Positions 1-32,522 of a stretch of 34,035 nucleotides of DNA are shown here, in pieces. A program made the position numbers and the translations under genes. Position 1 is the stretch's first letter, and every line of letters starts with the position of its first letter. A model generated the notes under the pieces. The model was not told the DNA's origin and ran no database searches. It saw only the letters and a program-made list of their open reading frames with translations. This stretch comes from Nemertoderma westbladi (lineage: Eukaryota > Animalia > Xenacoelomorpha), in the NCBI GenBank assembly GCA_032718475.1, contig JAUCBJ010006293.1:1-34035 (forward strand). The letters run 5' to 3'.

Positions 1-3000
1 TTTGTACTTAAATGTGGGTGCATTGTTCCTCTCTTTGTACTACATTTGGGTGCATTGTTCCTCTCTTTGTACTTAAATGTGGGTGCATTGTTCCTCTCTT
101 TGTACTTACATGTGGGTACATTGTTCCTCTCTTTGTACTTAGATGTGGGTGTTGTTCCTCCCTTTGTACTTAAATGTGGGTGCATTGTTCCTCTCTTTGT
201 ACTTAGATGTGGGTGTTGTTCCTCCCTTTGTACTTAAATGTGGGTGCATTGTTCCTCTCTTTGTACTTAGATGTGGGTGTTGTTCCTCCCTTTGTACTTA
301 AATGTGGGTGCATTGTTCCTCTCTTTGTACTTAGATGTGGGTGTTGTTCCTCCCTTTGTACTTAAATGTGGGTGCATTGTTCCTCTCTTTGTACTACATT
401 TGGGTGCATTGTTCCTCTCTTTGTACTACATTTGGGTACATTGTTCCTCCCTTTGTACTTACATATGGGTGCATTGTTCCTCCCTTTGTACTTACATGTG
501 GGTGCATTGTTCCTCCCTTTGTACTTAAATGTGGGTGCATTGTTCCTCTCTTTGTACTTAGATGTGGGTGCATTGTTCCTCCCTTTGTACTTAAATGTGG
601 GTGCATTGTTCCTCTCTTTGTACTTAGATGTGGGTGTTGTTCCTCCCTTTGTACTTAAATGTGGGTGCATTGTTCCTCTCTTTGTACTTAGATGCGGGTG
701 TTGTTCATCCCTTTGTACTTAAATGTGGGTGCATTGTTCCTCTCTTTGTACTTACATTTGGGTGCATTGTTCCTCCCTTTGTACTTACATGTGGGTGCAT
801 TGTTCCTCTCTTTGTACTTACATGTGGGTACATTGTTCCTCCCTTTGTACTTACATGTGGGTGCATTGTTCCTCTCTTTGTACTACATTTGGGTGCATTG
901 TTCCTCTCTTTGTACTACATGTGGGTACATTGTTCCTCTCTTTGTACTTAAATGTGGGTGCATTGTTCCTCCCTTTGTACTTAAATGTGGGTGCATTGTT
1001 CCTCCCTTTGTACTTACATGTGGGTGCATTGTTCCTCTCTTTGTACTACATTTGGGTGCATTGTTCCTCTCTTTGTACTACATGTGGGTACATTGTTCCT
1101 CTCTTTGTACTTAAATGTGGGTGCATTGTTCCTCTCTTTGTACTTACATGTGGGTACATTGTTCCTCCCTTTGTACTTACATGTGGGTGCATTGTTCCTC
1201 TCTTTGTACTACATTTGGGTGCATTGTTCCTCTCTTTGTACTACATGTGGGTGCATTGTTCCTCTCTTTGTACTTAGATGTGGGTGTTGTTCCTCCCTTT
1301 GTACTTAAATGTGGGTGCATTGTTCCTCTCTTTGTACTTAGATGTGGGTGTTGTTCCTCCCTTTGTACTTAAATGTGGGTGCATTGTTCCTCTCTTTGTA
1401 CTACATTTGGGTGCATTGTTCCTCCCTTTGTACTTACATGTGGGTGCATTGTTCCTCTCTTTGTACTTAGATGTGGGTGCATTGTTCCTCCCTTTGTACT
1501 ACATTTGGGTGCATTGTTCCTCTCTTTGTACTACATGTGGGTGCATTGTTCCTCTCTTTGTACTTAGATGTGGGTGTTGTTCCTCCCTTTGTACTTAAAT
1601 GTGGGTGCATTGTTCCTCCCTTTGTACTTACATGTGGGTGCATTGTTCCTCTCTTTGTACTACATTTGGGTGCATTGTTCCTCTCTTTGTACTACATGTG
1701 GGTACATTGTTCCTCCCTTTGTACTTACATGTGGGTGCATTGTTCCTCTCTTTGTACTTAGATGTGGGTGCATTGTTCCTCCCTTTGTACTTACATGTGG
1801 GTGCATTGTTCCTCTCTTTGTACTTAGATGTGGGTGCATTGTTCCTCCCTTTGTACTACATTTGGGTGCATTGTTCCTCTCTTTGTACTACATTTGGGTG
1901 CATTGTTCCTCCCTTTGTACTTACATGTGGGTGCATTGTTCCTCTCTTTGTACTTAGATGTGGGTGCATTGTTCCTCCCTTTGTACTACATTTGGGTGCA
2001 TTGTTCCTCTCTTTGTACTACATGTGGGTACATTGTTCCTCTCTTTGTACTTAAATGTGGGTGCATTGTTCCTCCCTTTGTACTTAAATGTGGGTGCATT
2101 GTTCCTCCCTTTGTACTTACATGTGGGTGCATTGTTCCTCTCTTTGTACTACATTTGGGTGCATTGTTCCTCTCTTTGTACTACATGTGGGTACATTGTT
2201 CCTCTCTTTGTACTTAAATGTGGGTGCATTGTTCCTCTCTTTGTACTTACATGTGGGTACATTGTTCCTCCCTTTGTACTTACATGTGGGTGCATTGTTC
2301 CTCTCTTTGTACTACATTTGGGTGCATTGTTCCTCTCTTTGTACTACATGTGGGTGCATTGTTCCTCTCTTTGTACTTAGATGTGGGTGTTGTTCCTCCC
2401 TTTGTACTTAAATGTGGGTGCATTGTTCCTCTCTTTGTACTTAGATGTGGGTGTTGTTCCTCCCTTTGTACTTAAATGTGGGTGCATTGTTCCTCTCTTT
2501 GTACTTACATGTGGGTACATTGTTCCTCCCTTTGTACTTAAATGTGGGTGCATTGTTCCTCTCTTTGTACTACATTTGGGTGCATTGTTCCTCCCTTTGT
2601 ACTTACATGTGGGTGCATTGTTCCTCCCTTTGTACTTACATGTGGGTGCATTGTTCCTCTCTTTGTACTACATTTGGGTGCATTGTTCCTCTCTTTGTAC
2701 TACATTTGGGTGCATTGTTCCTCTCTTTGTACTTAGATGTGGGTGTTGTTCCTCCCTTTGTACTTAAATGTGGGTGCATTGTTCCTCTCTTTGTACTACA
2801 TTTGGGTGCATTGTTCCTCTCTTTGTACTACATTTGGGTGCATTGTTCCTCCCTTTGTACTACATGTGGGTGCATTGTTCCTCTCTTTGTACTACATTTG
2901 GGTGCATTGTTCCTCTCTTTGTACTACATTTGGGTGCATTGTTCCTCTCTTTGTACTTAGATGTGGGTGTTGTTCCTCCCTTTGTACTTACATGTGGGTG

Positions 3001-6000
3001 CATTGTTCCTCTCTTTGTACTTACATGTGGGTACATTGTTCCTCCCTTTGTACTTACATGTGGGTGCATTGTTCCTCTCTTTGTACTACATTTGGGTGCA
3101 TTGTTCCTCTCTTTGTACTACATGTGGGTGCATTGTTCCTCCCTTTGTACTTAAATGTGGGTGCATTGTTCCTCTCTTTGTACTTAGATGTGGGTGTTGC
3201 TCCTCCCTTTGTACTTAAATGTGGGTGCATTGTTCCTCTCTTTGTACTTAGATGTGGGTGTTGTTCCTCCCTTTGTACTTAAATGTGGGTGCATTGTTCC
3301 TCTCTTTGTACTTAGATGTGGGTGTTGTTCCTCCCTTTGTACTTAAATGTGGGTACATTGTTCCTCCCTTTGTACTTACATGTGGGTGCATTGTTCCTCC
3401 CTTTGTACTACATTTGGGTACATTGTTCCTCCCTTTGTACTTACATGTGGGTGCATTGTTCCTCCCTTTGTACTTACATATGGGTGCATTGTTCCTCCCT
3501 TTGTACTACATTTGGGTGCATTGTTCCTCCCTTTGTACTACATTTGGGTGCATTGTTCCTCCCTTTGTACTACATTTGGGTGCATTGTTCCTCCCTTTGT
3601 ACTACATTTGGGTGCATTGTTCCTCCCTTTGTACTACATGTGGGTGCATTGTTCCTCCCTTTGTACTACATTTGGGTACATTGTTCCTCCCTTTGTACTT
3701 ACATGTGGGTGCATTGTTCCTCCCTTTGTACTACATGTGGGTGCATTGTTCCTCCCTTTGTACTTACATGTGGGTGCATTGTTCCTCTCTTTGTACTACA
3801 TTTGGGTGCATTGTTCCTCTCTTTGTACTTAGATGTGGGTGTTGTTCCTCCCTTTGTACTTAAATGTGGGTGCATTGTTCCTCTCTTTGTACTTACATGT
3901 GGGTGCATTGTTCCTCTCTTTGTACTACATGTGGCTGCATTGTTCCTCCCTTTGTACTTACATGTGGGTGCATTGTTCCTCTCTTTGTACTACATTTGGG
4001 TGCATTGTTCCTCCCTTTGTACTTACATGTGGGTGCATTGTTCCTCTCTTTGTACTACATTTGGGTGCATTGTTCCTCTCTTTGTACTTAGATGTGGGTG
4101 TTGTTCCTCCCTTTGTACTTAAATGTGGGTGCATTGTTCCTCTCTTTGTACTTACATGTGGGTGCATTGTTCCTCTCTTTGTACTACATGTGGCTGCATT
4201 GTTCCTCCCTTTGTACTTACATGTGGGTGCATTGTTCCTCCCTTTGTACTACATTTGGGTACATTGTTCCTCCCTTTGTACTTACATGTGGGTGCATTGT
4301 TCCTCCCTTTGTACTTACATATGGGTGCATTGTTCCTCCCTTTGTACTACATTTGGGTGCATTGTTCCTCCCTTTGTACTTACATGTGGGTGCATTGTTC
4401 CTCTCTTTGTACTACATTTGGGTGCATTGTTCCTCTCTTTGTACTTAGATGTGGGTGTTGTTCCTCCCTTTGTACTTAAATGTGGGTGCATTGTTCCTCT
4501 CTTTGTACTTACATGTGGGTGCATTGTTCCTCTCTTTGTACTACATGTGGCTGCATTGTTCCTCCCTTTGTACTTACATGTGGGTGCATTGTTCCTCTCT
4601 TTGTACTACATTTGGGTGCATTGTTCCTCCCTTTGTACTTACATGTGGGTGCATTGTTCCTCTCTTTGTACTACATTTGGGTGCATTGTTCCTCTCTTTG
4701 TACTTAGATGTGGGTGTTGTTCCTCCCTTTGTACTTAAATGTGGGTGCATTGTTCCTCTCTTTGTACTTACATGTGGGTGCATTGTTCCTCTCTTTGTAC
4801 TACATGTGGCTGCATTGTTCCTCCCTTTGTACTTACATGTGGGTGCATTGTTCCTCTCTTTGCACTACATTTGGGTGCATTGTTCCTCTCTTTGTACTTA
4901 GATGTGGGTGTTGTTCCTCCCTTTGTACTTAAATGTGGGTGCATTGTTCCTCTCTTTGTACTTACATGTGGGTGCATTGTTCCTCTCTTTGTACTACATG
5001 TGGCTGCATTGTTCCTCCCTTTGTACTTACATGTGGGTGCATTGTTCCTCTCTTTGTACTACATTTGGGTACATTGTTCCTCCCTTTGTACTTACATGTG
5101 GGTGCATTGTTCCTCCCTTTGTACTTACATATGGGTGCATTGTTCCTCCCTTTGTACTACATTTGGGTGCATTGTTCCTCTCTTTGTACTACATTTGGGT
5201 GCATTGTTCCTCTCTTTGTACTACATTTGGGTGCATTGTTCCTCTCTTTGTACTTAGATGTGGGTGTTGTTCCTCCCTTTGTACTTAAATGTGGGTGCAT
5301 TGTTCCTCTCTTTGTACTACATTTGGGTGCATTGTTCCTCTCTTTGTACTTAGATGTGGGTGTTGTTCCTCCCTTTGTACTTAAATGTGGGTGCATTGTT
5401 CCTCTCTTTGTACTTACATTTGGGTACATTGTTCCTCCCTTTGTACTTACATGTGGGTGCATTGTTCCTCTCTTTGTACTACATTTGGGTGCATTGTTCC
5501 TCCCTTTGTACTTACATGTGGGTGCATTGTTCCTCTCTTTGTACTACATTTGGGTGCATTGTTCCTCTCTTTGTACTTACATTTGGGTACATTGTTCCTC
5601 CCTTTGTACTTACATGTGGGTGCATTGTTCCTCCCTTTGTACTACATTTGGGTGCATTGTTCCTCCCTTTGTACTTACATATGGGTGCATTGTTCCTCCC
5701 TTTGTACTACATTTGGGTGCATTGTTCCTCTCTTTGTACTACATTTGGGTGCATTGTTCCTCTCTTTGTACTTACATTTGGGTACATTGTTCCTCCCTTT
5801 GTACTTACATGTGGGTGCATTGTTCCTCTCTTTGTACTACATTTGGGTGCATTGTTCCTCTCTTTGTACTTACATTTGGGTACATTGTTCCTCCCTTTGT
5901 ACTTACATGTGGGTGCATTGTTCCTCCCTTTGTACTACATTTGGGTGCATTGTTCCTCCCTTTGTACTTACATATGGGTGCATTGTTCCTCCCTTTGTAC

Positions 6001-7228
6001 TTACATGTGGGTGCATTGTTCCTCCCTTTGTACTTACATGTGGGTACATTGTTCCTCCCTTTGTACTTAAATGTGGGTGCATTGTTCCTCTCTTTGTACT
6101 TAGATGTGGGTGTTGTTCCTCCCTTTGTACTTAAATGTGGGTGCATTGTTCCTCTCTTTGTACTTACATGTGGGTGCATTGTTCCTCTCTTTGTACTACA
6201 TGTGGCTGCATTGTTCCTCCCTTTGTACTTACATGTGGGTGCATTGTTCCTCTCTTTGTACTACATTTGGGTGCATTGTTCCTCCCTTTGTACTTACATA
6301 TGGGTGCATTGTTCCTCCCTTTGTACTTACATGTGGGTGCATTGTTCCTCCCTTTGTACTTAAATGTGGGTGCATTGTTCCTCTCTTTGTACTTAGATGT
6401 GGGTGCATTGTTCCTCCCTTTGTACTTAAATGTGGGTGCATTGTTCCTCTCTTTGTACTTAGATGTGGGTGTTGTTCCTCCCTTTGTACTTAAATGTGGG
6501 TGCATTGTTCCTCTCTTTGTACTTAGATGTGGGTGTTGTTCATCCCTTTGTACTTACATTTGGGTGCATTGTTCCTCCCTTTGTACTTAAATGTGGGTGC
6601 ATTGTTCCTCTCTTTGTACTACATTTGGGTGCATTGTTCCTCCCTTTGTACTACATTTGAGTGCATTGTTCCTCTCTTTGTACTTACATGTGGGTGCATT
6701 GTTCCTCCCTTTGTACTTACACTTACATGTTTCCTCCCTTCGTACTTACTTGCGGGTGCATTGTTCCTCCCTTTGTACTTACATGTGGTTGTTGCTCCTC
6801 CCTTTGTACTTACATGTGGGTACATTGTTCCTCTCTTTGTACTTAAATGTGGGTGTTGTTCCTCCCTTTGTACTTATATGTGGGTGCATTGTTCCTCCCT
6901 TTGTACTTACATGTGGGTGCATTGTTCCTCCCTTTGTACTTACATGTGGGTACATTGTTCCTCTCTTTGTACTTAAATGTGGGTGTTGTTCCTCCCTTTG
7001 TACTTATATGTGGGTGCATTGTTCCTCCCTTTGTACTTAAATGTGGGTGCATTGTTCCTCTCTTTGTACTTACATGTGGGTGCATTGTTCCTCCCTTTGT
7101 ACTTACATGTGGGTGCATTGTTCCTCCCTTTGTACTTACATGTGGGTGCATTGTTCCTCCCTTTGTACTTACATTTGGGTGACTTGTTCCTCCCTTTGTA
7201 CTTACATGCGGGTGCATTGTTCCTCCCT
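1..7228. repeat. 31-33 bp minisatellite array (roughly 220 units, truncated by the window start), intronic in the VGLUT-like gene and derived from its exon end plus 5' splice site
   Basis: Consensus on + is TTTGTACTTACATGTGGGTGCATTGTTCCTCYC; on - it reads GRGAGGAACAATGCACCCACAT|GTAAGTACAAA. Variants are 33 bp, 32 bp (ACTACAT) and 31 bp (GGGTGTTG). The last unit merges into the coding exon at 7206-7228. Confidence 0.98.
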
Positions 7229-7395
7229 CGTGCGTAGAGGCATTCCCATTAAGGGTAACTACAGAAACACCTAGATTACATCGGATCCCGAAACTAATAC
7301 AGAAACCAAGGCCGCACATCAGGGCGATGGCGTACCGGGTAGAGATACTACAGCATTGGGGGCACGTGCATGGCAGACGTCCGCGAAACCGATTC
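7206..7395 (-). CDS. VGLUT: Vesicular glutamate transporter (SLC17A6/7/8-like) exon encoding TM1 and the start of the first luminal loop
   Basis: Acceptor ttttcttccctag| and donor |GTAAGT. Translates [63 protein letters not shown], matching the VGLUT motif [34 protein letters not shown]. 190 nt, phase 2 in, phase 0 out. Confidence 0.93.
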
Positions 7396-8355: not shown

Positions 8356-8463
8356 CTCAATGATGAAGAATCCGCTAATTCTGGGGCACCCCCTATGTGA
8401 CCGTTCTCCAGGGTCTCCTCGTGGTTCAGCAACGATTTCTCATCCAAATTTTTATGCCCCGCC
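8356..8463 (-). CDS. VGLUT: Upstream VGLUT-like exon (cytoplasmic N-terminus)
   Basis: Acceptor aatttttag| and donor GAG|GTAAGA. 108 nt, open: AGHKNLDEKSLLNHEETLENGHIGGAPELADSSSL, ending in phase 2 (AG|G = Arg), which joins in frame to the 7395 exon. GC-richer than its flanks. Confidence 0.72.
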
Positions 8464-14521: not shown

Positions 14522-15577
14522 CTAAAAACACCCTCTAAAATACGAATGAACCAAATCCCCCAAAGCGCCGGTTGCGTTTCTAGTTATTTCTGGGTTGATC
14601 TGGTTGGGAAAGCGTCGTCTGCTGGGATCCGATCCGAAAACGAAATGGGGATGAATCGATTCGAAGTTTGGATATCCGATGTTAACTAGCGGGAATGGTC
14701 GGTTGGGTCCGACCATCGGGGCGTCCAGTTGGTAGACGGGGGATCCCGACGAAACATCTTCGCTGCGCTCTCGGGACGACTTGATTGCCATTTTATGGAG
14801 CTGTCGTTTCGCGAGTTTCTTTCCTTTGGCTCTCTCGTTCTGGAACCAGACCTGAACAATGCGCACCGGAAGTCCAGTCTCATCCGCGAGTCGCTCTTTC
14901 ACTTTCCGCGAGGGTTTCTGGGACACATCGAACGCCGTACGGAATATTCGTCGTTGGGTTGTCGTGAGAATGACCCGTTTGCTTCGGTTCACTAGATAAT
15001 GTTTCTTAAGTTTATTCGAAGAGCGAAAAGCCGTTGATTTATCGGATCCAGATGGGCTGGAATTCTCAAATAATTCATCGGAACAGCCGCTGTCATCTTC
15101 CGATAAACCGTCCACGTTAAAACTCATCTTATCAAGATCGGTTTTGCACATGAGTTGACCCTCGTTTATTATAAATTCATCTCCTTTCTCCAGATGCTTG
15201 CAGCACCAGGCGCAATTAAAGCAAGATAAATGAAACACGAGTTCCTTAACCCGCATCACAAGTTCCCGCGGTCCAACCAACTGGCAACAAACGTGGCATT
15301 TCGTGCCGAACAGACGCAAGTAGTCGTGTTTACAATAGTATTCGCGTTGTTTCACGTAGCACACGTTGTTCAATGGGATGCCGCACTCGCAGCACATCAA
15401 ACATCCCTCGTGCCAGAAACTCTCGCCTCCGCCCGACACACTTAGTAAATAACGGTCCAAAATATCCGTCTTACAACCGTGACATTGTGCGTGGGATGGG
15501 GGTTCCCGCTTCATGCTAATCTCAGATTGAATGGAAAGAGTTTCTCTTTCGTACTGTAAAGCATCGCAACGATTCAT
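14522..15577 (-). CDS. Lmx1: LIM-homeobox transcription factor, Lmx1 class, intronless CDS (351 aa from the first ATG)
   Basis: Two complete LIM domains (CHGC..WHEGCLMCCEC..CKHD; CHVC..FHLSCFNCAWC..CKTD). The homeodomain at 14810-14989 (RVILTTTQRRIFRTAFDVSQKPSRKVKERLADETGLPVRIVQVWFQNERAK) closely resembles Lmx1 [51 protein letters not shown]. C-terminal SYF as in Lmx1. The track start at 15616 is not an ATG; the first ATG is at 15577. Confidence 0.95.
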   Translation of the reverse strand: MNRCDALQYERETLSIQSEISMKREPPSHAQCHGCKTDILDRYLLSVSGGGESFWHEGCLMCCECGIPLNNVCYVKQREYYCKHDYLRLFGTKCHVCCQLVGPRELVMRVKELVFHLSCFNCAWCCKHLEKGDEFIINEGQLMCKTDLDKMSFNVDGLSEDDSGCSDELFENSSPSGSDKSTAFRSSNKLKKHYLVNRSKRVILTTTQRRIFRTAFDVSQKPSRKVKERLADETGLPVRIVQVWFQNERAKGKKLAKRQLHKMAIKSSRERSEDVSSGSPVYQLDAPMVGPNRPFPLVNIGYPNFESIHPHFVFGSDPSRRRFPNQINPEITRNATGALGDLVHSYFRGCF

Positions 15578-20328: not shown

Positions 20329-20401
20329 GCCTCCGTGGTGTTAGTGGTTAGCATACCTGAACGTTTATCGGGAGACGCGGGTTCGATCCCCGCTGGTGGC
20401 G
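20329..20401 (+). tRNA. tRNA-like sequence (pseudo-tRNA or tRNA-derived element; nominal anticodon GTT)
   Basis: Folds as a cloverleaf: acceptor GCCTCCG/TGGTGGC (one T-T mismatch), D arm GTGT-TAGTGGTTA-GCAT, anticodon stem CCTGA/TCGGG, T arm GCGGG-TTCGATC-CCCGC. A and B boxes are intact and TTCTTTTTT follows. The loop ACGTTTA lacks U33 and purine 37. Confidence 0.7.
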
Positions 20402-24231: not shown

Positions 24232-24374
24232 GTTAGTTACTAATGGGGAACTGGACAGAAACCGATGATGTCGCTGCCATAAAAAAAAGGAATGTTATTG
24301 AAGGTAAGGCGAATGGCCTATTATAGTAATAGTAGGTCATGTAACAAGGTAGTTCCGAACATGGTGCAACGAGG

Positions 24375-27300
24375 ATAGTGGTACCCATAGCACAATAGTG
24401 GAGTCCATGTAACGATATTGGTGCCCATAGCACGATAAGTGGAGTCCATGTAACGATAGTGGTGCCCTGCCCATAGCACAATAGTGGAGCTCATGTAACG
24501 ATAGTGGTGCCCATAGCACAATAGTGGAGCTCATGTAACGATAGTGGTGCCCTGCCAATAGCACAATAGTGGAGCTCATGTAACGATAGTGGTGCCCATA
24601 GCACAATAGTGTAGCTCATGTAACGATAGTGGTGCTCATAGCACAATAGTGTAGCTCATGTAACGATAGTGGTACCCATAGCACAATGAGTGGAGTCCAT
24701 GTAACGATAGTGGTGCCCTGCCCATAGCACAATAGTGGAGCTCATTTAATGTTAGTGGTGCTGGTGCCCATAGCACAATAGTGGAGCCCATGTAACGATA
24801 GTGGGGCCCTGCACATAGCACAATATTGAAGCCCATGTAACGATAGTGGTGCCCATAGCACAATAGTAGAGCTTATCTAACGTTTAGTGGTGCCCAAGGC
24901 ACAATAGTGGAGCCCATGTAACGATAGTGGTGCCCTACCCAGCCCATAGCACAATAGTGGAGCTCATGTAACGTTAGTGGTTCCCATAGCACAATAGTGG
25001 AGCCCATGTAACGATAGTGGTACTCATTGCACAATAGTGGAGCTCATGTAACGTTAGTGATGCCCATTGCACAATAGTGGAGCTCATGTAACGTTAGTGG
25101 TGCTGGTGCCCGTGGTACAATAGTAGTGCTCATTTAACGATAGTGGTGCCCATTGCACAATAGTGGAGCTCATGTAACGTTAGTGGTGCTGGTGCCCATG
25201 GTACAATAGTAGTGCTCATTTAACGATAGTGGTGCCCATTGCACAATAGTGGAGCTCATGTAACGTTAGTGGTGCCCATTGCACAATAGTGGAGCTCATG
25301 TAACGTTAGTGGTGCCCATTGCATAATAGTGGAGCTCATGTAACGTTAGTGGTGCTGGTGCCCATGGTACAATAGTAGAGCTCATTTAACGATAGTGGTG
25401 CCCATTGCACAATATTGGAGCTCATGTAATGCTAGTGGTGCAGGTGCCCGTGGTACAATAGTAGTGATCATTTAACGATAGTGGTGCCCATTGCACAATA
25501 GTGGAGCTCATGTAACGTTAGTTGTACCCATAGCACAATAGTGGAGCCCATGTAACGATAGTGGTGCCCTGCCCATAGCACAATAGTGGATCATGTAACG
25601 TTAGTGGTGCCCATAGCACAATAGTAGAGCTCATCTAACGTTTAGTTGTGCCCAAGGCACAATAGTGGAGCCCATGTAATGATAGTGGTGCCCTGCCCAG
25701 CCCATAACACAATAGTGGAGCTCATGTAACGTTAGTGGTGCCCATAGCACAATAGTGGAGCCCATGTAACGATAGTGGTACTCATTGCACAATAGTGGAG
25801 CTCATGTAACGTTAGTGGTGCCCATTGCACAATAGTGGAGCTCATGTAACGTTAGTGGTGCCCATTGCATAATAGTGGAGCTCATGTAACGTTAGTGGTG
25901 CTGGTGCCCATGGTACAATAGTAGAGCTCATTTAACGATAGTGGTGCCCATAGCACAATAGTGGAGCTCATGTAACGTTAGTGGTGTCCATTGCACAATA
26001 GTGGAGCTCGTGTAACGTTAGTGGTGCTCATTGCACAATAGTGGAGCTCATGTAACGATAGTGGTGCCCATAGCACAATAGTGGAGCTCATGTATTGCTA
26101 GTGGTGCAGGTGCCCGTGGTACAATAGTAGTGCTCATTTAACGATAGTGGTGCCCATAGCACAATAGTGGAGCTCATGTAACGTTAGTGGTGTCCATTGC
26201 ACAATAGTGGAGCTCGTGTAACGTTAGTGGTGCTCATTGCACAATAGTGGAGCTCATGTAACGATAGTGGTGCCCATAGCACAATAGTAGAGCTCATGTA
26301 ACGTTAGTGGTGCTGGTGCCCATGGTACAATAGTAGTGCTCATGTAACGATAGTGGTGCCCATTGCACAATAGTGGAGTTCATGTAACATTAGTGGTGCT
26401 GGTGCCCGTGGTACAATAGTAGTGTTCATTTAACGATATTGGTGCCCGTTGTACAATAGTAGTGCTCATTTAACGATAGTGGTGCCCATTGCACAATACT
26501 GGAGCTCATGTAACGTTAGTGGTGCTGGTGCCCGTGGTACAATAGTAGTGTTCATTTAACGATATTGGTGCCCATTGCACAATAGTGGAGCTCATGTAAC
26601 GTTAGTGGTGCCCATGGTACAATAGTAGTGCTCATTTAACGATAGTAGTGCTCATTGCACAATAGTGGAGCTCATGTAACGGTAGTGGTGCCCACTGCAC
26701 AATAGTGGAGCTCATGTAACGTTAGTGGTGCTGGTGCCCATGGTACAATAGTAGAGCTCATTTAACGATAGTGGTGCCCATTGCACAATAGTGGAGCTCA
26801 TGTAACGTTAGTGGTGCAGGTGCCCGTGGTACAATAGTAGTGCTCATTTAACGATAGTGGTGCCCATTGCACAATAGTGGAGCTCATGTAACGTTAGTGG
26901 TGCCCATTGCATAATAGTGGAGCTAATGTAACGTTAGTGGTGCTGGTGCCCATGGTACAATAGTAGTGCTCATTTAACGATAGTGATGCCCATTGCACAA
27001 TAGTGGAGCTCATGTAACGTTAGTGGTGCCCATGGCACAATAGTGGAGCTCATGTAACGTTAGTGGTGCTGGTGCCCGTGGTATAATAGTAGTGCTCATT
27101 TAACGGTAGTGGTGCCCATTGCACAATAGTGGAGCTCATGTAACGTTAGTAGTGCCCATTTCACAATAGTGGAGCTCATGTAACGTTAGTGGTGCCCATT
27201 GCACAATAGTGGAGCTCATGTAACGTTACTGGTGCCCATTGCACAATAGTGGAACTCATGTAACGTTAGTGGTGCCCATGGTACAAAAGCAGAGTTCATT

Positions 27301-29437
27301 TAACGTTAGTGGTGCTGGTGCCCGTGATACAATAGTAGTGTTCATTTAATGATATTGGTGCCCATTGCACAATAGTGGAGCTCATGTAACGTTAGTGGTG
27401 CCCATTGCACAATAGTGGAGCTCATGTAACGTTAGTGGTGCTGGTGCCCATGGTACAATAGTAGTGCTCATGTAACGATAGTGGTGCCCATTGCACAATA
27501 GTGGAGTTCATGTAACGTTAGTGGTGCTGTTGCCCGTGGTACAATAGTAGTGTTCATTTAACGATATTGGTGCCCGTTGTATAATAGTAGTGCTCATTTA
27601 ACGATAGTGGTGCCCATTGCACAATACTGGAGCTCATTTAACGTTAGTGGTGCTGGTGCCCGTGGTACAATATTAGTGTTCATTTAACGATATTGGTGCC
27701 CATTGCACAATAGTGGAGCTCATGTAACGTTAGTGGTGCCCATGGTACAATAGTAGTGCTCATTTAACGATAGTAGTGCTCATTGCACAATAGTGGAGCT
27801 CATGTAACGGTAGTGGTGCCCACTGCACAATAGTGGAGCTCATGTAACGTTAGTGGTGCTGGTGCCCATGGTACAATAGTAGAGCTCATTTAACGATAGT
27901 GGTGCCCATTGCACAATAGTGGAGCTCATGTAACGTTAGTGGTGCAGGTGCCCGTGGTACAATAGTAGTGCTCATTTAACGATAGTGGTGCCCATTGCAC
28001 AATAGTGGAGCTCATGTAACGTTAGTGGTGCCCATTGCACAATAGTGGAGCTCATGTAACGTTAGTGGTGCTGGTGCCCATGGTACAATAGTAGTGCTCA
28101 TTTAACGATAGTGGTGCCCATTGCACAATAGTGGAGCTCGTGTAACGTTAGTGGTGCCCATGGCACAATAGTGGAGCTCATGTAACGTTAGTGGTGCTGG
28201 TGCCCGTGGTATAATAGTAGTGCTCATTTAACGGTAGTGGTGCCCATTGCACAATAGTGGAGCTCATATAACGTTAGTGGTGCCCATTGCACAATAGTGG
28301 AGCTCATGTAACGTTAGTGGTGCCCATTGCACAATAGTGGACCTCATGTAACGTTAGTGGTGCCCATGGTACAATAGTAGAGCTCATTTAACGATAGTGG
28401 TGCCCATTGCACAATAGTGGAGCTCATATAACGTTAGTGGTGCAGGTGCCCGCGGTACAATAGTAGTGCTCATTTAACGATAGTGGTGCCCATTGCACAA
28501 TAGTGGAGCTCATGTAACGTTAGTGGTGCTGGTGCCCGTGGTACAATAGTAGTGCTTATTTAACGATAGTGGTGCCCATTGCACAATAGTGGAGCTCATG
28601 TAACGTTAGTGGTGCTGGTGCCCATGGTACAATAGTAGTGCTCATTTAACGATAGTGGTGCCCATTGCACAATAGTGGAGTTCATGTAACGTTAGTGGTG
28701 CTGGTGCCCATGGTACAATAGTAGTGCTCAGTTAACTATAGTGGTGCCCAGGGCGCAATAGTAGAGCTCATGTAACGTTAGTGGTGCTGGTGCCCATGGT
28801 ACAATAGTAGTGCTCATTTAACGATAGTGGTGCCCATTGCACAATAGTGGAGTTCATGTAACGTTAGTGGTGCTGGTGCCCATGGTACAATAGTAGTGCT
28901 CAGTTAACTATAGTGGTGCCCAGGGCGCAATAGTAGAGCTCATGTAACGTTACTGGTGCCCATTGCACAATAGTGGAACTCATGTAACGTTAGTGGTGCC
29001 CATGGTACAAAAGCAGAGTTCATTTAACGTTAGTGGTGCTGGTGCCCGAGGTACAATAGTAGTGTTCATTTAACGATATAGGTGCCCATTGCACAATAGT
29101 GGAGCTCATGTAACGTTAGTGGTGCCCATTGCACAATAGTGGAGCTCATGTAACGTTAGTGGTGCTGGTGCCCGTGGTACAATAGTAGTGTTCATTTAAC
29201 GATATTGGTGCCCATTGCACAATAGTGTAGCTCATGTAACGTTAGTGGTGCCCTGCCCATTGCACAATAGTGGAGCCCATGTAACGTTAGTGGTGCTGGT
29301 GCCCATGGTACAATAGTAGTGCTCAGTTAACTATAGTGGTGCCCATGGCGCAATAGTAGAGCTCATGTAACGTTACTGGTGCCCATTGCACAATAGTGGA
29401 GGCTGGTGCCCATAGCACAAAAGTGGAGCTCATGTAA
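24375..29437. repeat. ~5 kb minisatellite, 40 bp core unit with 45/46 bp variants, filling scramblase intron 2
   Basis: Consensus ATAGTGGTGCCCATWGCACA-ATAGTGGAGCTCATGTAACG, with insertion variants CCCTG and GGTGCT. Confidence 0.98.
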
Positions 29438-29773
29438 TGTTGTTTTTATTTTAGAAACTAATCTATGTGTACGTTGTTGTCTTTATTTTAGAAACTAATC
29501 TATGTGTACGTTGTTGTCTTTATTTTAGAAACTAATCTATGTGTACGTTGTTGTCTTTATTTTAGAAACTAATCTATGTGTACGCTGTTGTCTTTATTTT
29601 AGAAACTAATCTATGTGTACGTTGTTGTCTTTATTTTAGAAACTAATCTATGTGTACGTTGTTGTCTTTATTTTAGAAACTAATCTATGTGTACGTTGTT
29701 GTCTTTATTTTAGAAACTAATCTATGTGTACGTTGTTGTCTTTATTTTAGAAACTAATCTATGTGTACGTTGT
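29438..29773 (+). repeat. 37 bp tandem array (9 acceptors) made of the scramblase 3' splice site plus exon start
   Basis: Unit TTGTCTTTATTTTAG|AAACTAATCTATGTGTACGTTG. The AGs end at 29454, 29491, 29528, 29565, 29602, 29639, 29676, 29713 and 29750. Confidence 0.97.
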
Positions 29774-30851: not shown

Positions 30852-32522
30852 ATGGAAGACCAAAAGGAAGCTAAAACGAAGGCTCTGCAGGCTGCTGAAG
30901 ATTCTTTAGCTGATGATGCAGTTTGGAAAACCATACAGAAAAACACATTTACTAGATGGTGCAACGAACATTTGAAGAAAACACCTAGATCCGTGGATGA
31001 TTTAGATAAAGACCTCGGGGATGGTCTCGTACTTATTTCGTTGCTAGAGGCGTTGTCAGGGGAGAAGTTCCCCAAGTATCACAAGAAACCGGGATTCCAA
31101 CAGATGAAGTTGGAGAACATATCAACTGTGTTGCGGTTCCTTATCGATCATGAGCATCTCAAGTTGGTGAACATCGGCACTATGGACATCGCGAACGGGA
31201 AATCTAAGTTGATATTGGGCCTCATATGGACGCTCATTCTGCATTACTCTGTGTCGAATTGGACCGCTAAAGATGAGGACGGGTCGAGCCCAATCGATAA
31301 CGACAGTTCGTTGACCCCGAAGCAGCGATTACTTCGGTGGATTCAGGATAAAGTCGCCCCTAAGAAGATCGACAACCTCACCACCGATTGGAACGATGGA
31401 CGCTCGATAGGGGCCTTAGTCGACGCCGTCGCCCCCGGCCTGTGTCCGGACTGGGAGCTGTGGGACCCCGAGGACGATTTGAGAAACGCCAAGGAAGCGA
31501 TGCAACTCGCGGAGGATTGGTTAAATGTCCCGCAACTATTGAGGCCCGAGGATATGACGAACCCGAATGTGGATGATCTCTCGATGATGACCTATCTCAG
31601 TCAGTATCCTAAGTGCAGTGTGAAGGAAGGCGCGCCAATCAGACCTCCCAAGTCTAAAGATTTAAAGATATACGGACCAGGATTAGACGAAGAAGAAATA
31701 GAATTGGGCAAACCCGTGAAGTTTACCGTTGAAGCGCCTATCAATCATGATGAGGATATATCAGTTGACATCGTTGACGGCAATGGGGATGATATTGAGG
31801 TCGAAACTCTAATAGAAAGTAGTAAAGATAAAAAGAAGGTCAACTTTTCTTATGTACCGGAAGAGCCAGGGATTTACTCCGTGAGAGTTCGTGATGGTGA
31901 TAATGAGGTGAAACAGAGTCCGTATTGTGTCGACCTGTCGAATCATAAGAAAAATATTATCGCCGAGGAACCAATTATTGCACCATCTCAGGTAAATCGC
32001 AATCAATTTGCGGATATTGGAGATCTTCTAAAAGATCCTGACATGGTTTACGCATCGGATCTAAATATGGAGAAAGAAGATGATGAATTCAATGTGATAA
32101 CAAAGTTTAATATTCTGCCAGATGAGGACAACGTCTATCAACTGGAACATGTTGAAACTATTAAACCTGATATCCAACAAACCACATTTTTCTTTCCTTG
32201 CGAACCAGATGACAATGATTCGGAGGCGGTGGAATGCATAGGAGACTCTGTTAGCGAAGGTGTCGTGGGTCGGAACACATTCTCTGTGGACGCCAGTCGA
32301 GCCGCTTACCATCGGCCGCTCATCGTAGGTGTGAAGGGCGCGAATTCGCCGTGCGAAGAGTTGAGAGTGAAACACACCGGAGGAAATATATATAGAGCGT
32401 CGACTACGACGTAACAGAAAGCGGGAAGTATTGCCTCATAGTCAAGTGGGGGAAAACAGCATGTCAGAGGGAGTCCGTTTAAGATAAGAGTTCGCGATAC
32501 AAGAACCACGGGATTATTTTAG
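30852..32522 (+). CDS. Short intronless filamin-like protein: CH1-CH2 actin-binding domain, one Ig repeat, acidic linker and terminal Ig repeat disrupted by two frameshifts (ORF as read ends at 32414)
   Basis: LADDAVWKTIQKNTFTRWCNEHLK, KLILGLIWTLILHYS, TPKQRLLRWIQDK, TDWNDGRSIGALVDAVAPGLCPDW and VDDLSMMTYLSQYP match the filamin ABD. YGPGL..FTVE..SYVPEEPGIYSV..SPY is an Ig repeat. FSVDASRA..VGVKGANSPCEELRVKHTGGNIY plus the frameshifted SVDYDVTESGKYCLIVKWG-KQHVRGSPFKIRV resembles the last filamin repeat. Confidence 0.9.

What the first reader, a model, noticed from the sequence alone, without database searches (positions are those of the whole stretch)
7073..7228. Five intact in-frame 5' splice sites could give VGLUT a length-variable luminal loop
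Seen: on the minus strand, intact T|GTAAGT donors start at 7205, 7172, 7139, 7106 and 7073, spaced 33 nt apart with no stop codon. Each step adds 11 aa ([11 protein letters not shown] or a close variant), giving +0/11/22/33/44 aa. The next two donors are destroyed (7040 TT, 7007 AT) and a 31 bp unit then shifts the frame. Established: this position is the glycosylated first luminal loop after TM1 (NAS sequon just upstream), a variable region of VGLUTs. Inference: donor choice could add His-containing repeats facing the acidic vesicle lumen.
Basis: partly seen in the sequence, partly recalled or inferred. Interest (0 to 1): 0.8.

Follow-up and report, generated by a model that had tools for sequence, protein, structure and literature searches.

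The report
Repeated splice donor in VGLUT intron
The end of one exon of an invertebrate glutamate-transporter gene, splice signal included, has been copied over 220 times into the next intron; this kind of repeat is known from human and lancelet genes, and the first signal, which sits at the ancestral position, likely does most of the work, though no RNA was available to test it.

Summary
The five in-frame, stop-free GTAAGT donors are real. They are the first five of at least 222 units of a >7.2-kb, 33-bp minisatellite built from the last 23 nt of a VGLUT exon plus 10 nt of intron; 76 units keep an intact donor, 71 of them unproductive. Donor 7205 is the ancestral one: 75 of 128 homologous read-through ORFs show the donor valine at the same position. 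This is a 'mirage' or exon/intron-boundary minisatellite, as in human F7, IFI6, CBS, LMNB2 and PDGFA and in amphioxus genes, where the first donor is used alone or with the next two. This scan has noted the same layout on other DNA many times. The proximal run is mildly unusual (p 0.01-0.03), but the array's edge is un-homogenised and also keeps the exon-like base at a non-donor site. The loop is luminal and has annotated inserts at this junction in 3 of 120 vertebrate VGLUTs, so leak would probably be tolerated. Donor use is untested: no RNA run was listed. Verdict: new member of a known kind; a functional length ladder is unlikely.

The parts
7206..7395 (-). VGLUT (SLC17A6/7/8-like) coding exon, 190 nt: end of the N-terminal tail, TM1 and start of luminal loop 1; acceptor AG at 7397-7396, phase 2 in, phase 0 out
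7236..7244 (-). N-A-S glycosylation sequon, aligned to residue 101 of the VGLUT2 chain
1..7228 (-). 33-bp minisatellite, at least 222 units (29-33 nt, 31 unit types), running off the window; unit = last 23 nt of the exon + first 10 nt of the intron
7200..7205 (-). Donor 1, CAT|GTAAGT: the authentic donor at the ancestral intron position
7167..7172 (-). Pseudo-donor 2, AAT|GTAAGT, in frame (+11 aa)
7134..7139 (-). Pseudo-donor 3, in frame (+22 aa; would add an N-V-S sequon)
7101..7106 (-). Pseudo-donor 4, in frame (+33 aa)
7068..7073 (-). Pseudo-donor 5, in frame (+44 aa)
7002..7040 (-). Two destroyed donors (TT at 7040, AT at 7007); the unit from 7007 is 31 nt and shifts the frame
6905..6943 (-). 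Two intact but out-of-frame donors (6943, 6910) upstream of the first in-frame stop
6843..6845 (-). First in-frame stop (TAA) of the read-through, codon 121 after donor 1
750..854 (-). Run of four intact donors 33 nt apart deep in the array (854, 821, 788, 755): an internal control for the proximal run
8356..8463 (-). Candidate preceding exon, 108 nt, AG...GTAAGA, phase-compatible and open when spliced to the VGLUT exon; no homology support was sought

Best explanation
A 33-bp piece spanning the 3' end of a VGLUT exon and its splice donor has been amplified into an intronic minisatellite of at least 222 units, and the spliceosome likely uses the first, ancestral donor (7205) for nearly all transcripts, leaving the copies as silent or near-silent pseudo-donors. 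Shown: unit anatomy, array size, donor states and frames, and the position of donor 1 at the conserved intron. Inferred: origin by tandem duplication across the boundary; expansion and homogenisation of the interior by slippage or unequal exchange, with the edge left out, which keeps exon-like units next to the exon; first-donor choice by exon definition or 5'-to-3' priority as in F7; any leak to donors 2-5 would be in frame in a tolerant loop and so nearly neutral.
For: Unit = exon end + donor: the exon's last 23 nt match the consensus unit at 22 of 23 positions, and this stretch holds the GG shared with VGLUT2. Donor 1 is ancestral: 75 of 128 homologous read-through ORFs have V at the equivalent residue (40 VS/VR) against 6-17 at each of the next ten positions, while spliced homologues continue K/T-A-Q-F there; with donor 1 the exon supplies 25 residues from the Cys of GIRCN, as in vertebrate VGLUTs, of which 112 of 120 have the standard loop length. 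71 of 76 intact donors are out of frame or behind a stop, including two only 262-295 nt from donor 1, so intact donors have not been removed where their use would be harmful. The edge differs from the interior in general: 9 of the first 17 units are rare types against 8 of 204, and the non-donor +13 G>A variant is in 3 of the first 16 against 105 of 205; exclusion of boundaries from homogenisation is described for amphioxus mirages. The first added unit has two non-synonymous changes. Precedent: only the first donor is used in F7, LMNB2 and PDGFA, and in-frame F7 copies are silent too; amphioxus mirages do not disturb splicing.
Against: The proximal run of five is the longest in the array and has p = 0.012 (shuffle) to 0.03 (proximal rate); the interior chance of one good unit following another is 19 of 64. 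Two destroyed donors stand just before the first frameshift, as selection on leaky donors would predict. All five donors match the consensus equally (8 of 9) and have similar predicted accessibility (0.38-0.47 unpaired), so only position favours the first. In IFI6 (6-16) and CBS two downstream copies are used. The scanning rule was shown in mammalian cells, not in this unidentified invertebrate. The next exon is outside the window, so its phase is inferred from homologues.
Confidence: 0.7

Rival explanations
1. Leaky use, IFI6/CBS-like: donor 1 dominates but donors 2-3 (perhaps up to 5) are used constitutively at a visible minor level, giving +11/+22-aa loop isoforms. Weak selection keeps the nearest copies in frame or destroys them, without the isoforms having a function of their own.
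For: Two downstream copies are used in IFI6 and CBS (PMC1557585 introduction). Proximal run p 0.01-0.03, with destroyed donors before the frameshift. Equal donor strength. Annotated inserts of +6, +24 and +25 aa at this junction in 3 of 120 vertebrate VGLUT1/2 proteins suggest the loop tolerates extra residues.
Against: The edge effect explains the run without selection. Intact out-of-frame donors at 6943 and 6910 persist. Three of the five human cases named in PMC1557585 use only the first donor.
Confidence: 0.22
2. One reading: a selected, possibly regulated ladder of five isoforms that adds His-rich 11-mers (and a second glycan site) to the lumen-facing loop and tunes the transporter's response to vesicle pH, its stability or its sorting.
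For: In frame, stop-free and in the glycosylated luminal loop; His count after the TM1 region would rise 3, 4, 6, 8, 10, and an N-V-S sequon appears from donor 3 on. A photoreceptor-specific VGLUT1 splice variant exists (PMC11182277, one passage); that it is a 25-aa insert in this loop is recalled, and fits the +25-aa hamster protein P0191.
Against: No sign of coding constraint: the first added unit differs by two amino acids. No such peptide repeat follows this junction in the spliced homologues examined. The array is 40 times longer than the usable part and mostly unproductive. His content is simply copied from the exon end.
Confidence: 0.04
3. The many decoy donors act against the gene rather than for isoforms: they bind U1, lower splicing efficiency or cause exon skipping and nonsense-mediated decay, and donor-killing variants have spread in the array because they relieve this.
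For: 146 of 222 units have lost the donor through four variant types (+1 G>T 42, +1 G>C 32, +1 G>A 2, one-base deletion at +3 70); 3 of the 7 common variants hit donor positions +1 to +6.
Against: Few independent events (the +1 changes may derive from each other), spread by block duplication (identical blocks of 14 and 16 units), so counts are not independent; about a third of the units stay intact along the array. F7 copies do not compete with the first site.
Confidence: 0.04

Closest known systems
Human F7 intron 7 37-bp VNTR (Borensztajn et al. 2006, PMC1557585; seen: abstract, synopsis, introduction, discussion, searched passages)
   Same: First unit spans the exon/intron boundary, so identical donors follow the authentic one; some copies are in frame and stop-free.
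   Different: F7 has 5-9 units with 4 exonic nt; here at least 222 units, 23 exonic nt, 76 intact donors, and a unit that is a multiple of three. F7 splicing was measured (first donor only); here it is untested.
Human IFI6 (6-16) intron 2 and CBS intron 13 minisatellites (seen only as described in PMC1557585's introduction; the original papers were not read)
   Same: Donor-repeating minisatellite; these are the precedents for use of the two nearest copies besides the authentic donor.
   Different: 25 and 15-20 copies; use of copies shown there, not here. No case of five usable steps is described in what I read.
Amphioxus 'mirages' (globins BflGb6/BflGb9, Adh3, troponin C, PGBD5; PMC3087553 and PMC3902484, passages)
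   Same: Invertebrate minisatellite duplications of exon/intron boundaries; many but not all units keep the splice signal; concerted evolution inside, boundaries excluded.
   Different: The unit numbers given in the passages read are small (3 and 6 for BflGb6); this array is far longer. RT-PCR there showed normal splicing.
Mammalian VGLUT1v splice variant (Moriyama et al. 2017: title seen in a reference list and one passage in PMC11182277; the 25-aa loop insert is recalled)
   Same: Extra residues at the same exon junction in luminal loop 1: hamster P0191 has +25 aa and tarsier P0196 +24 aa there.
   Different: The P0191 insert does not begin with the donor valine, so it looks like a cassette or acceptor shift, not a donor ladder; single step, non-repetitive sequence.

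Membership tests
Exon/intron-boundary minisatellite ('mirage'; F7 IVS7 type) | Head-to-tail array of 10-160-bp units | tested here: met
   Period 33, 223 copies, 91% matches
Exon/intron-boundary minisatellite ('mirage'; F7 IVS7 type) | First unit spans an authentic exon/intron junction | tested here: met
   23 exonic + 10 intronic nt; donor at the conserved VGLUT intron position
Exon/intron-boundary minisatellite ('mirage'; F7 IVS7 type) | Splice signal reiterated in many but not all units | tested here: met
   76 of 222 intact
Exon/intron-boundary minisatellite ('mirage'; F7 IVS7 type) | Concerted evolution inside, boundary units excluded | tested here: met
   Identical blocks of 14 and 16 units inside; 9 of 17 edge units rare against 8 of 204; only the proximal edge is in the window
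Exon/intron-boundary minisatellite ('mirage'; F7 IVS7 type) | Length polymorphism between alleles | not testable with these tools
   One haplotype, no genome held
Exon/intron-boundary minisatellite ('mirage'; F7 IVS7 type) | First donor used alone or mainly | not testable with these tools
   No sequencing run could be listed for this DNA, so no reads were laid
IFI6/CBS subtype (downstream copies used) | Transcripts spliced at copies 2-3 | not testable with these tools
   Needs RNA
VGLUT (SLC17A6-8) clade | TM1 sequence closer to VGLUT than to sialin, with the Arg of GIRCN (residue 88 of the VGLUT2 chain) | tested here: met
   E 1e-14 against 2e-3; Arg aligned to 88
VGLUT (SLC17A6-8) clade | N-glycosylation sequon in luminal loop 1 | tested here: met
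   NAS aligned to residue 101; loop described as glycosylated in PMC6861006
VGLUT (SLC17A6-8) clade | Full 12-TM MFS fold with the remaining transport residues | not testable with these tools
   Downstream exons lie outside the window; the 63-aa exon alone matched no Pfam family

The most novel reading that the evidence does not exclude
An unusually long donor-repeating minisatellite has been put to use at its proximal end: three or more of the downstream in-frame donors are used at substantial, perhaps cell-type-specific levels, giving a VGLUT ladder in 11-aa steps whose lumen-facing loop gains up to seven histidines and a second N-glycan site, fenced off by destroyed donors just before the first frameshift.
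Probability: 0.07. Interest if true: 0.6.

Novelty: new member of a known kind. Interest (0 to 1): 0.2.

Why it matters
As it most likely stands, it is an ordinary but very large example of a known oddity: at least 76 donors of equal strength behind one exon, a natural test of first-donor priority in an invertebrate. If the ladder were real it would be a minisatellite-built length dial on a synaptic vesicle transporter, with more steps than the IFI6 and CBS cases, and would make the role of VGLUT's luminal loop in pH sensing directly testable.

Tried and rejected
No whole genome is held, so the next exon, the far end of the array and other copies of the unit could not be examined. Sequencing-run search with the exon (7206-7395, kind rna): no RNA holder listed; this is no evidence either way, and no reads could be laid. 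Search for this species' own spliced VGLUT: the word-based search of longer proteins gave 1 hit among 6 candidates, 54% identical, and the best 150 of 256 representatives were 45-68% identical, so no close relative or transcript-derived protein was seen. Lineage: the neighbouring LMX-like protein is only 42-48% identical to amphioxus proteins; the organism stays an unidentified animal, taken to be an invertebrate from these low identities. RNA folding showed no difference in accessibility between donors. Donor strength gave no ranking (all 8 of 9; consensus from PMC1557585). Selection against decoy donors was considered and left as a weak rival: too few independent events. Assembly artefact rejected as the origin of the layout: 31 unit types with ordered block duplications, although total length may be off. 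Papers not held: Moriyama 2017, Turri 1995. PMC10078293 passages had nothing on donor-repeating units; PMC5954066 was seen as a search listing only. Four searches for VGLUT loop splicing gave no paper on a donor ladder in VGLUT; most subscription journals are not covered. No structure was predicted, because only two exons are in the window.

Full report
Observation. The minus strand carries a 190-nt exon (7395-7206) behind a pyrimidine tract and AG, translating to a TM1 segment and the start of a loop. GTAAGT stands at 7205, 7172, 7139, 7106 and 7073, 33 nt apart and in codon phase 0; 7040 and 7007 have lost the GT, and the unit from 7007 is 31 nt. I segmented 222 donor positions; 76 are intact GTAAGT. 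Five are productive (in frame, before the first stop at 6845); 71 are not, including 6943 and 6910, which are intact, out of frame and upstream of that stop.

The gene. The exon product matches VGLUT2 and VGLUT3 chains (E 1e-14, 2e-11) far better than sialin (2e-3); its Arg aligns to residue 88 and its NAS sequon to residue 101 of the 582-aa VGLUT2 chain. The first luminal loop is the glycosylated one (PMC6861006, passages). A 108-nt candidate exon at 8463-8356 splices to it in frame. The next exon is outside the window and no genome is held. No close relative was found; the organism is an unidentified animal, probably an invertebrate.

Which donor is the original. Gene calls on genomic contigs read through the exon end into the intron, so a phase-0 GT shows up as a valine. 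Of 151 homologues (P0002 and the best 150 of 256 hits), 18 matched the downstream spliced motif (3 of these are read-throughs of short introns) and 133 did not; 128 of the 133 reached the position of interest. 75 of 128 have V at residue 26 counted from the Cys of GIRCN (40 VS or VR), against 6-17 at each of positions 27-36; valines are also common at positions 16 and 23 (53 and 50), mostly inside the exon. Spliced vertebrate proteins continue K/T-A-Q-F at 26. Donor 7205 gives exactly 25 residues from that Cys. A fish VGLUT3-like read-through loses its match to the solved VGLUT3 chain at the same place. So 7205 is the ancestral donor. The unit is the exon's last 23 nt (22 of 23 identical to the consensus unit) plus 10 intronic nt, and the exonic part holds the GG shared with VGLUT2, so the repeat came from the exon end, not the reverse (inference).

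Is the proximal run more than chance? The open frame is built in: the unit is mostly copied codons, and only one of its three frames has a stop. Four more intact donors 33 nt apart directly after the first have p = 0.012 when the 221 units are shuffled and about 0.03 with the proximal rate; this speaks mildly against my reading. But a run of five somewhere has p = 0.45, a run of four lies at 854-755, and the shuffle null is a poor model because the edge is not like the interior: 9 of the first 17 units are rare types against 8 of 204, the edge shares no block longer than one unit with the interior while the interior has identical blocks of 14 and 16 units, the commonest donor-killing variant is in 0 of the first 16 units against 70 of 205, and a non-donor variant is depleted too (3 of 16 against 105 of 205). 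Units are not independent, so these counts are descriptive. Exclusion of boundary units from homogenisation is reported for amphioxus mirages (PMC3087553, passages). The first added unit has two amino-acid changes, which is not what a conserved peptide repeat would show.

How it most likely works. All five donors match MAG|GURAGU at 8 of 9 positions and are about equally accessible in a folding model, so position decides. In F7, identical copies behind the authentic donor are functional yet unused, the in-frame ones included, and the most upstream site wins (PMC1557585: abstract, introduction, discussion). LMNB2 and PDGFA behave alike, IFI6 and CBS also use two copies (same introduction, second-hand); lancelet mirages give no aberrant mRNA. 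I put 0.70 on first-donor use with silent or near-silent copies, 0.22 on visible minor use of the nearest copies, 0.04 on a selected ladder and 0.04 on a mainly repressive effect. The rule comes from mammalian cells, and its transfer here is inference.

Would extra residues be tolerated? Probably. Among the best 120 of 889 vertebrate VGLUT1/2 proteins (ranked by score, which favours forms without inserts), 112 have the standard Cys-to-Trp distance of 30, 3 have 31, one 27, one was unresolved, and three carry inserts at this junction: +6 (gibbon, beginning with V), +24 (tarsier) and +25 (hamster). These are database gene models. The +25 form fits the retinal variant VGLUT1v, whose existence I saw in one passage (PMC11182277) and whose insert size I recall. 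Donors 2-5 would give distances of about 41, 52, 63 and 74 if the next exon is of the usual kind; spliced homologues span 19-42. Tolerance removes a barrier to leak; it does not show use or function.

Novelty. The layout is a known kind, and this scan has noted it on other DNA many times (unchecked AI notes, several reporting first-donor use). What is particular here is the size, well above the 5-25 copies of the human cases, and the chance coincidence of an in-frame unit with a loop known to take inserts. My searches for VGLUT loop splicing listed no donor ladder in VGLUT; the library lacks most subscription journals, and no supplements were read. The decisive test, junction counts, could not be run.

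Noticed in passing
window 14522-15574 (-): Intronless LIM-homeobox ORF (350 aa; LIM and homeodomain by Pfam), best hits LMX1-like proteins of amphioxus at 42-48%. It lies 6 kb upstream of the candidate VGLUT exon on the same strand; whether it is nested in a VGLUT intron or is a retrocopy is open.
   Followed up: partly
window 30852-32414 (+): Intronless filamin-like ORF (520 aa) with two CH domains and only one clear filamin repeat: a much shortened filamin, perhaps a retrocopy or a first large exon.
   Followed up: partly
window 24374-29401: A second large minisatellite (40/46-bp units, 86- and 126-bp higher-order periods, about 120 copies), directly abutting a 37-bp x 9 array at 29438-29773.
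   Followed up: no
window 20329-20401 (+): ARAGORN calls a tRNA-Asn(GTT); it may be a tRNA-derived repeat rather than a gene.
   Followed up: no
window 1-7040 (-): 146 of 222 units have lost the donor through four variant types; position +1 has all three possible substitutions. Too few independent events to call selection.
   Followed up: partly
window 6526-6330 and 691-495 (-): The same seven-unit block recurs 5.8 kb apart, so the array has long-range duplications and may extend well beyond the window.
   Followed up: no
P0067, P0085, P0052, P0098: Related VGLUT homologues with an intron apparently earlier in loop 1 and loop lengths of 19 and 42 in two gene models: loop 1 and its intron position vary in some lineages.
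   Followed up: no
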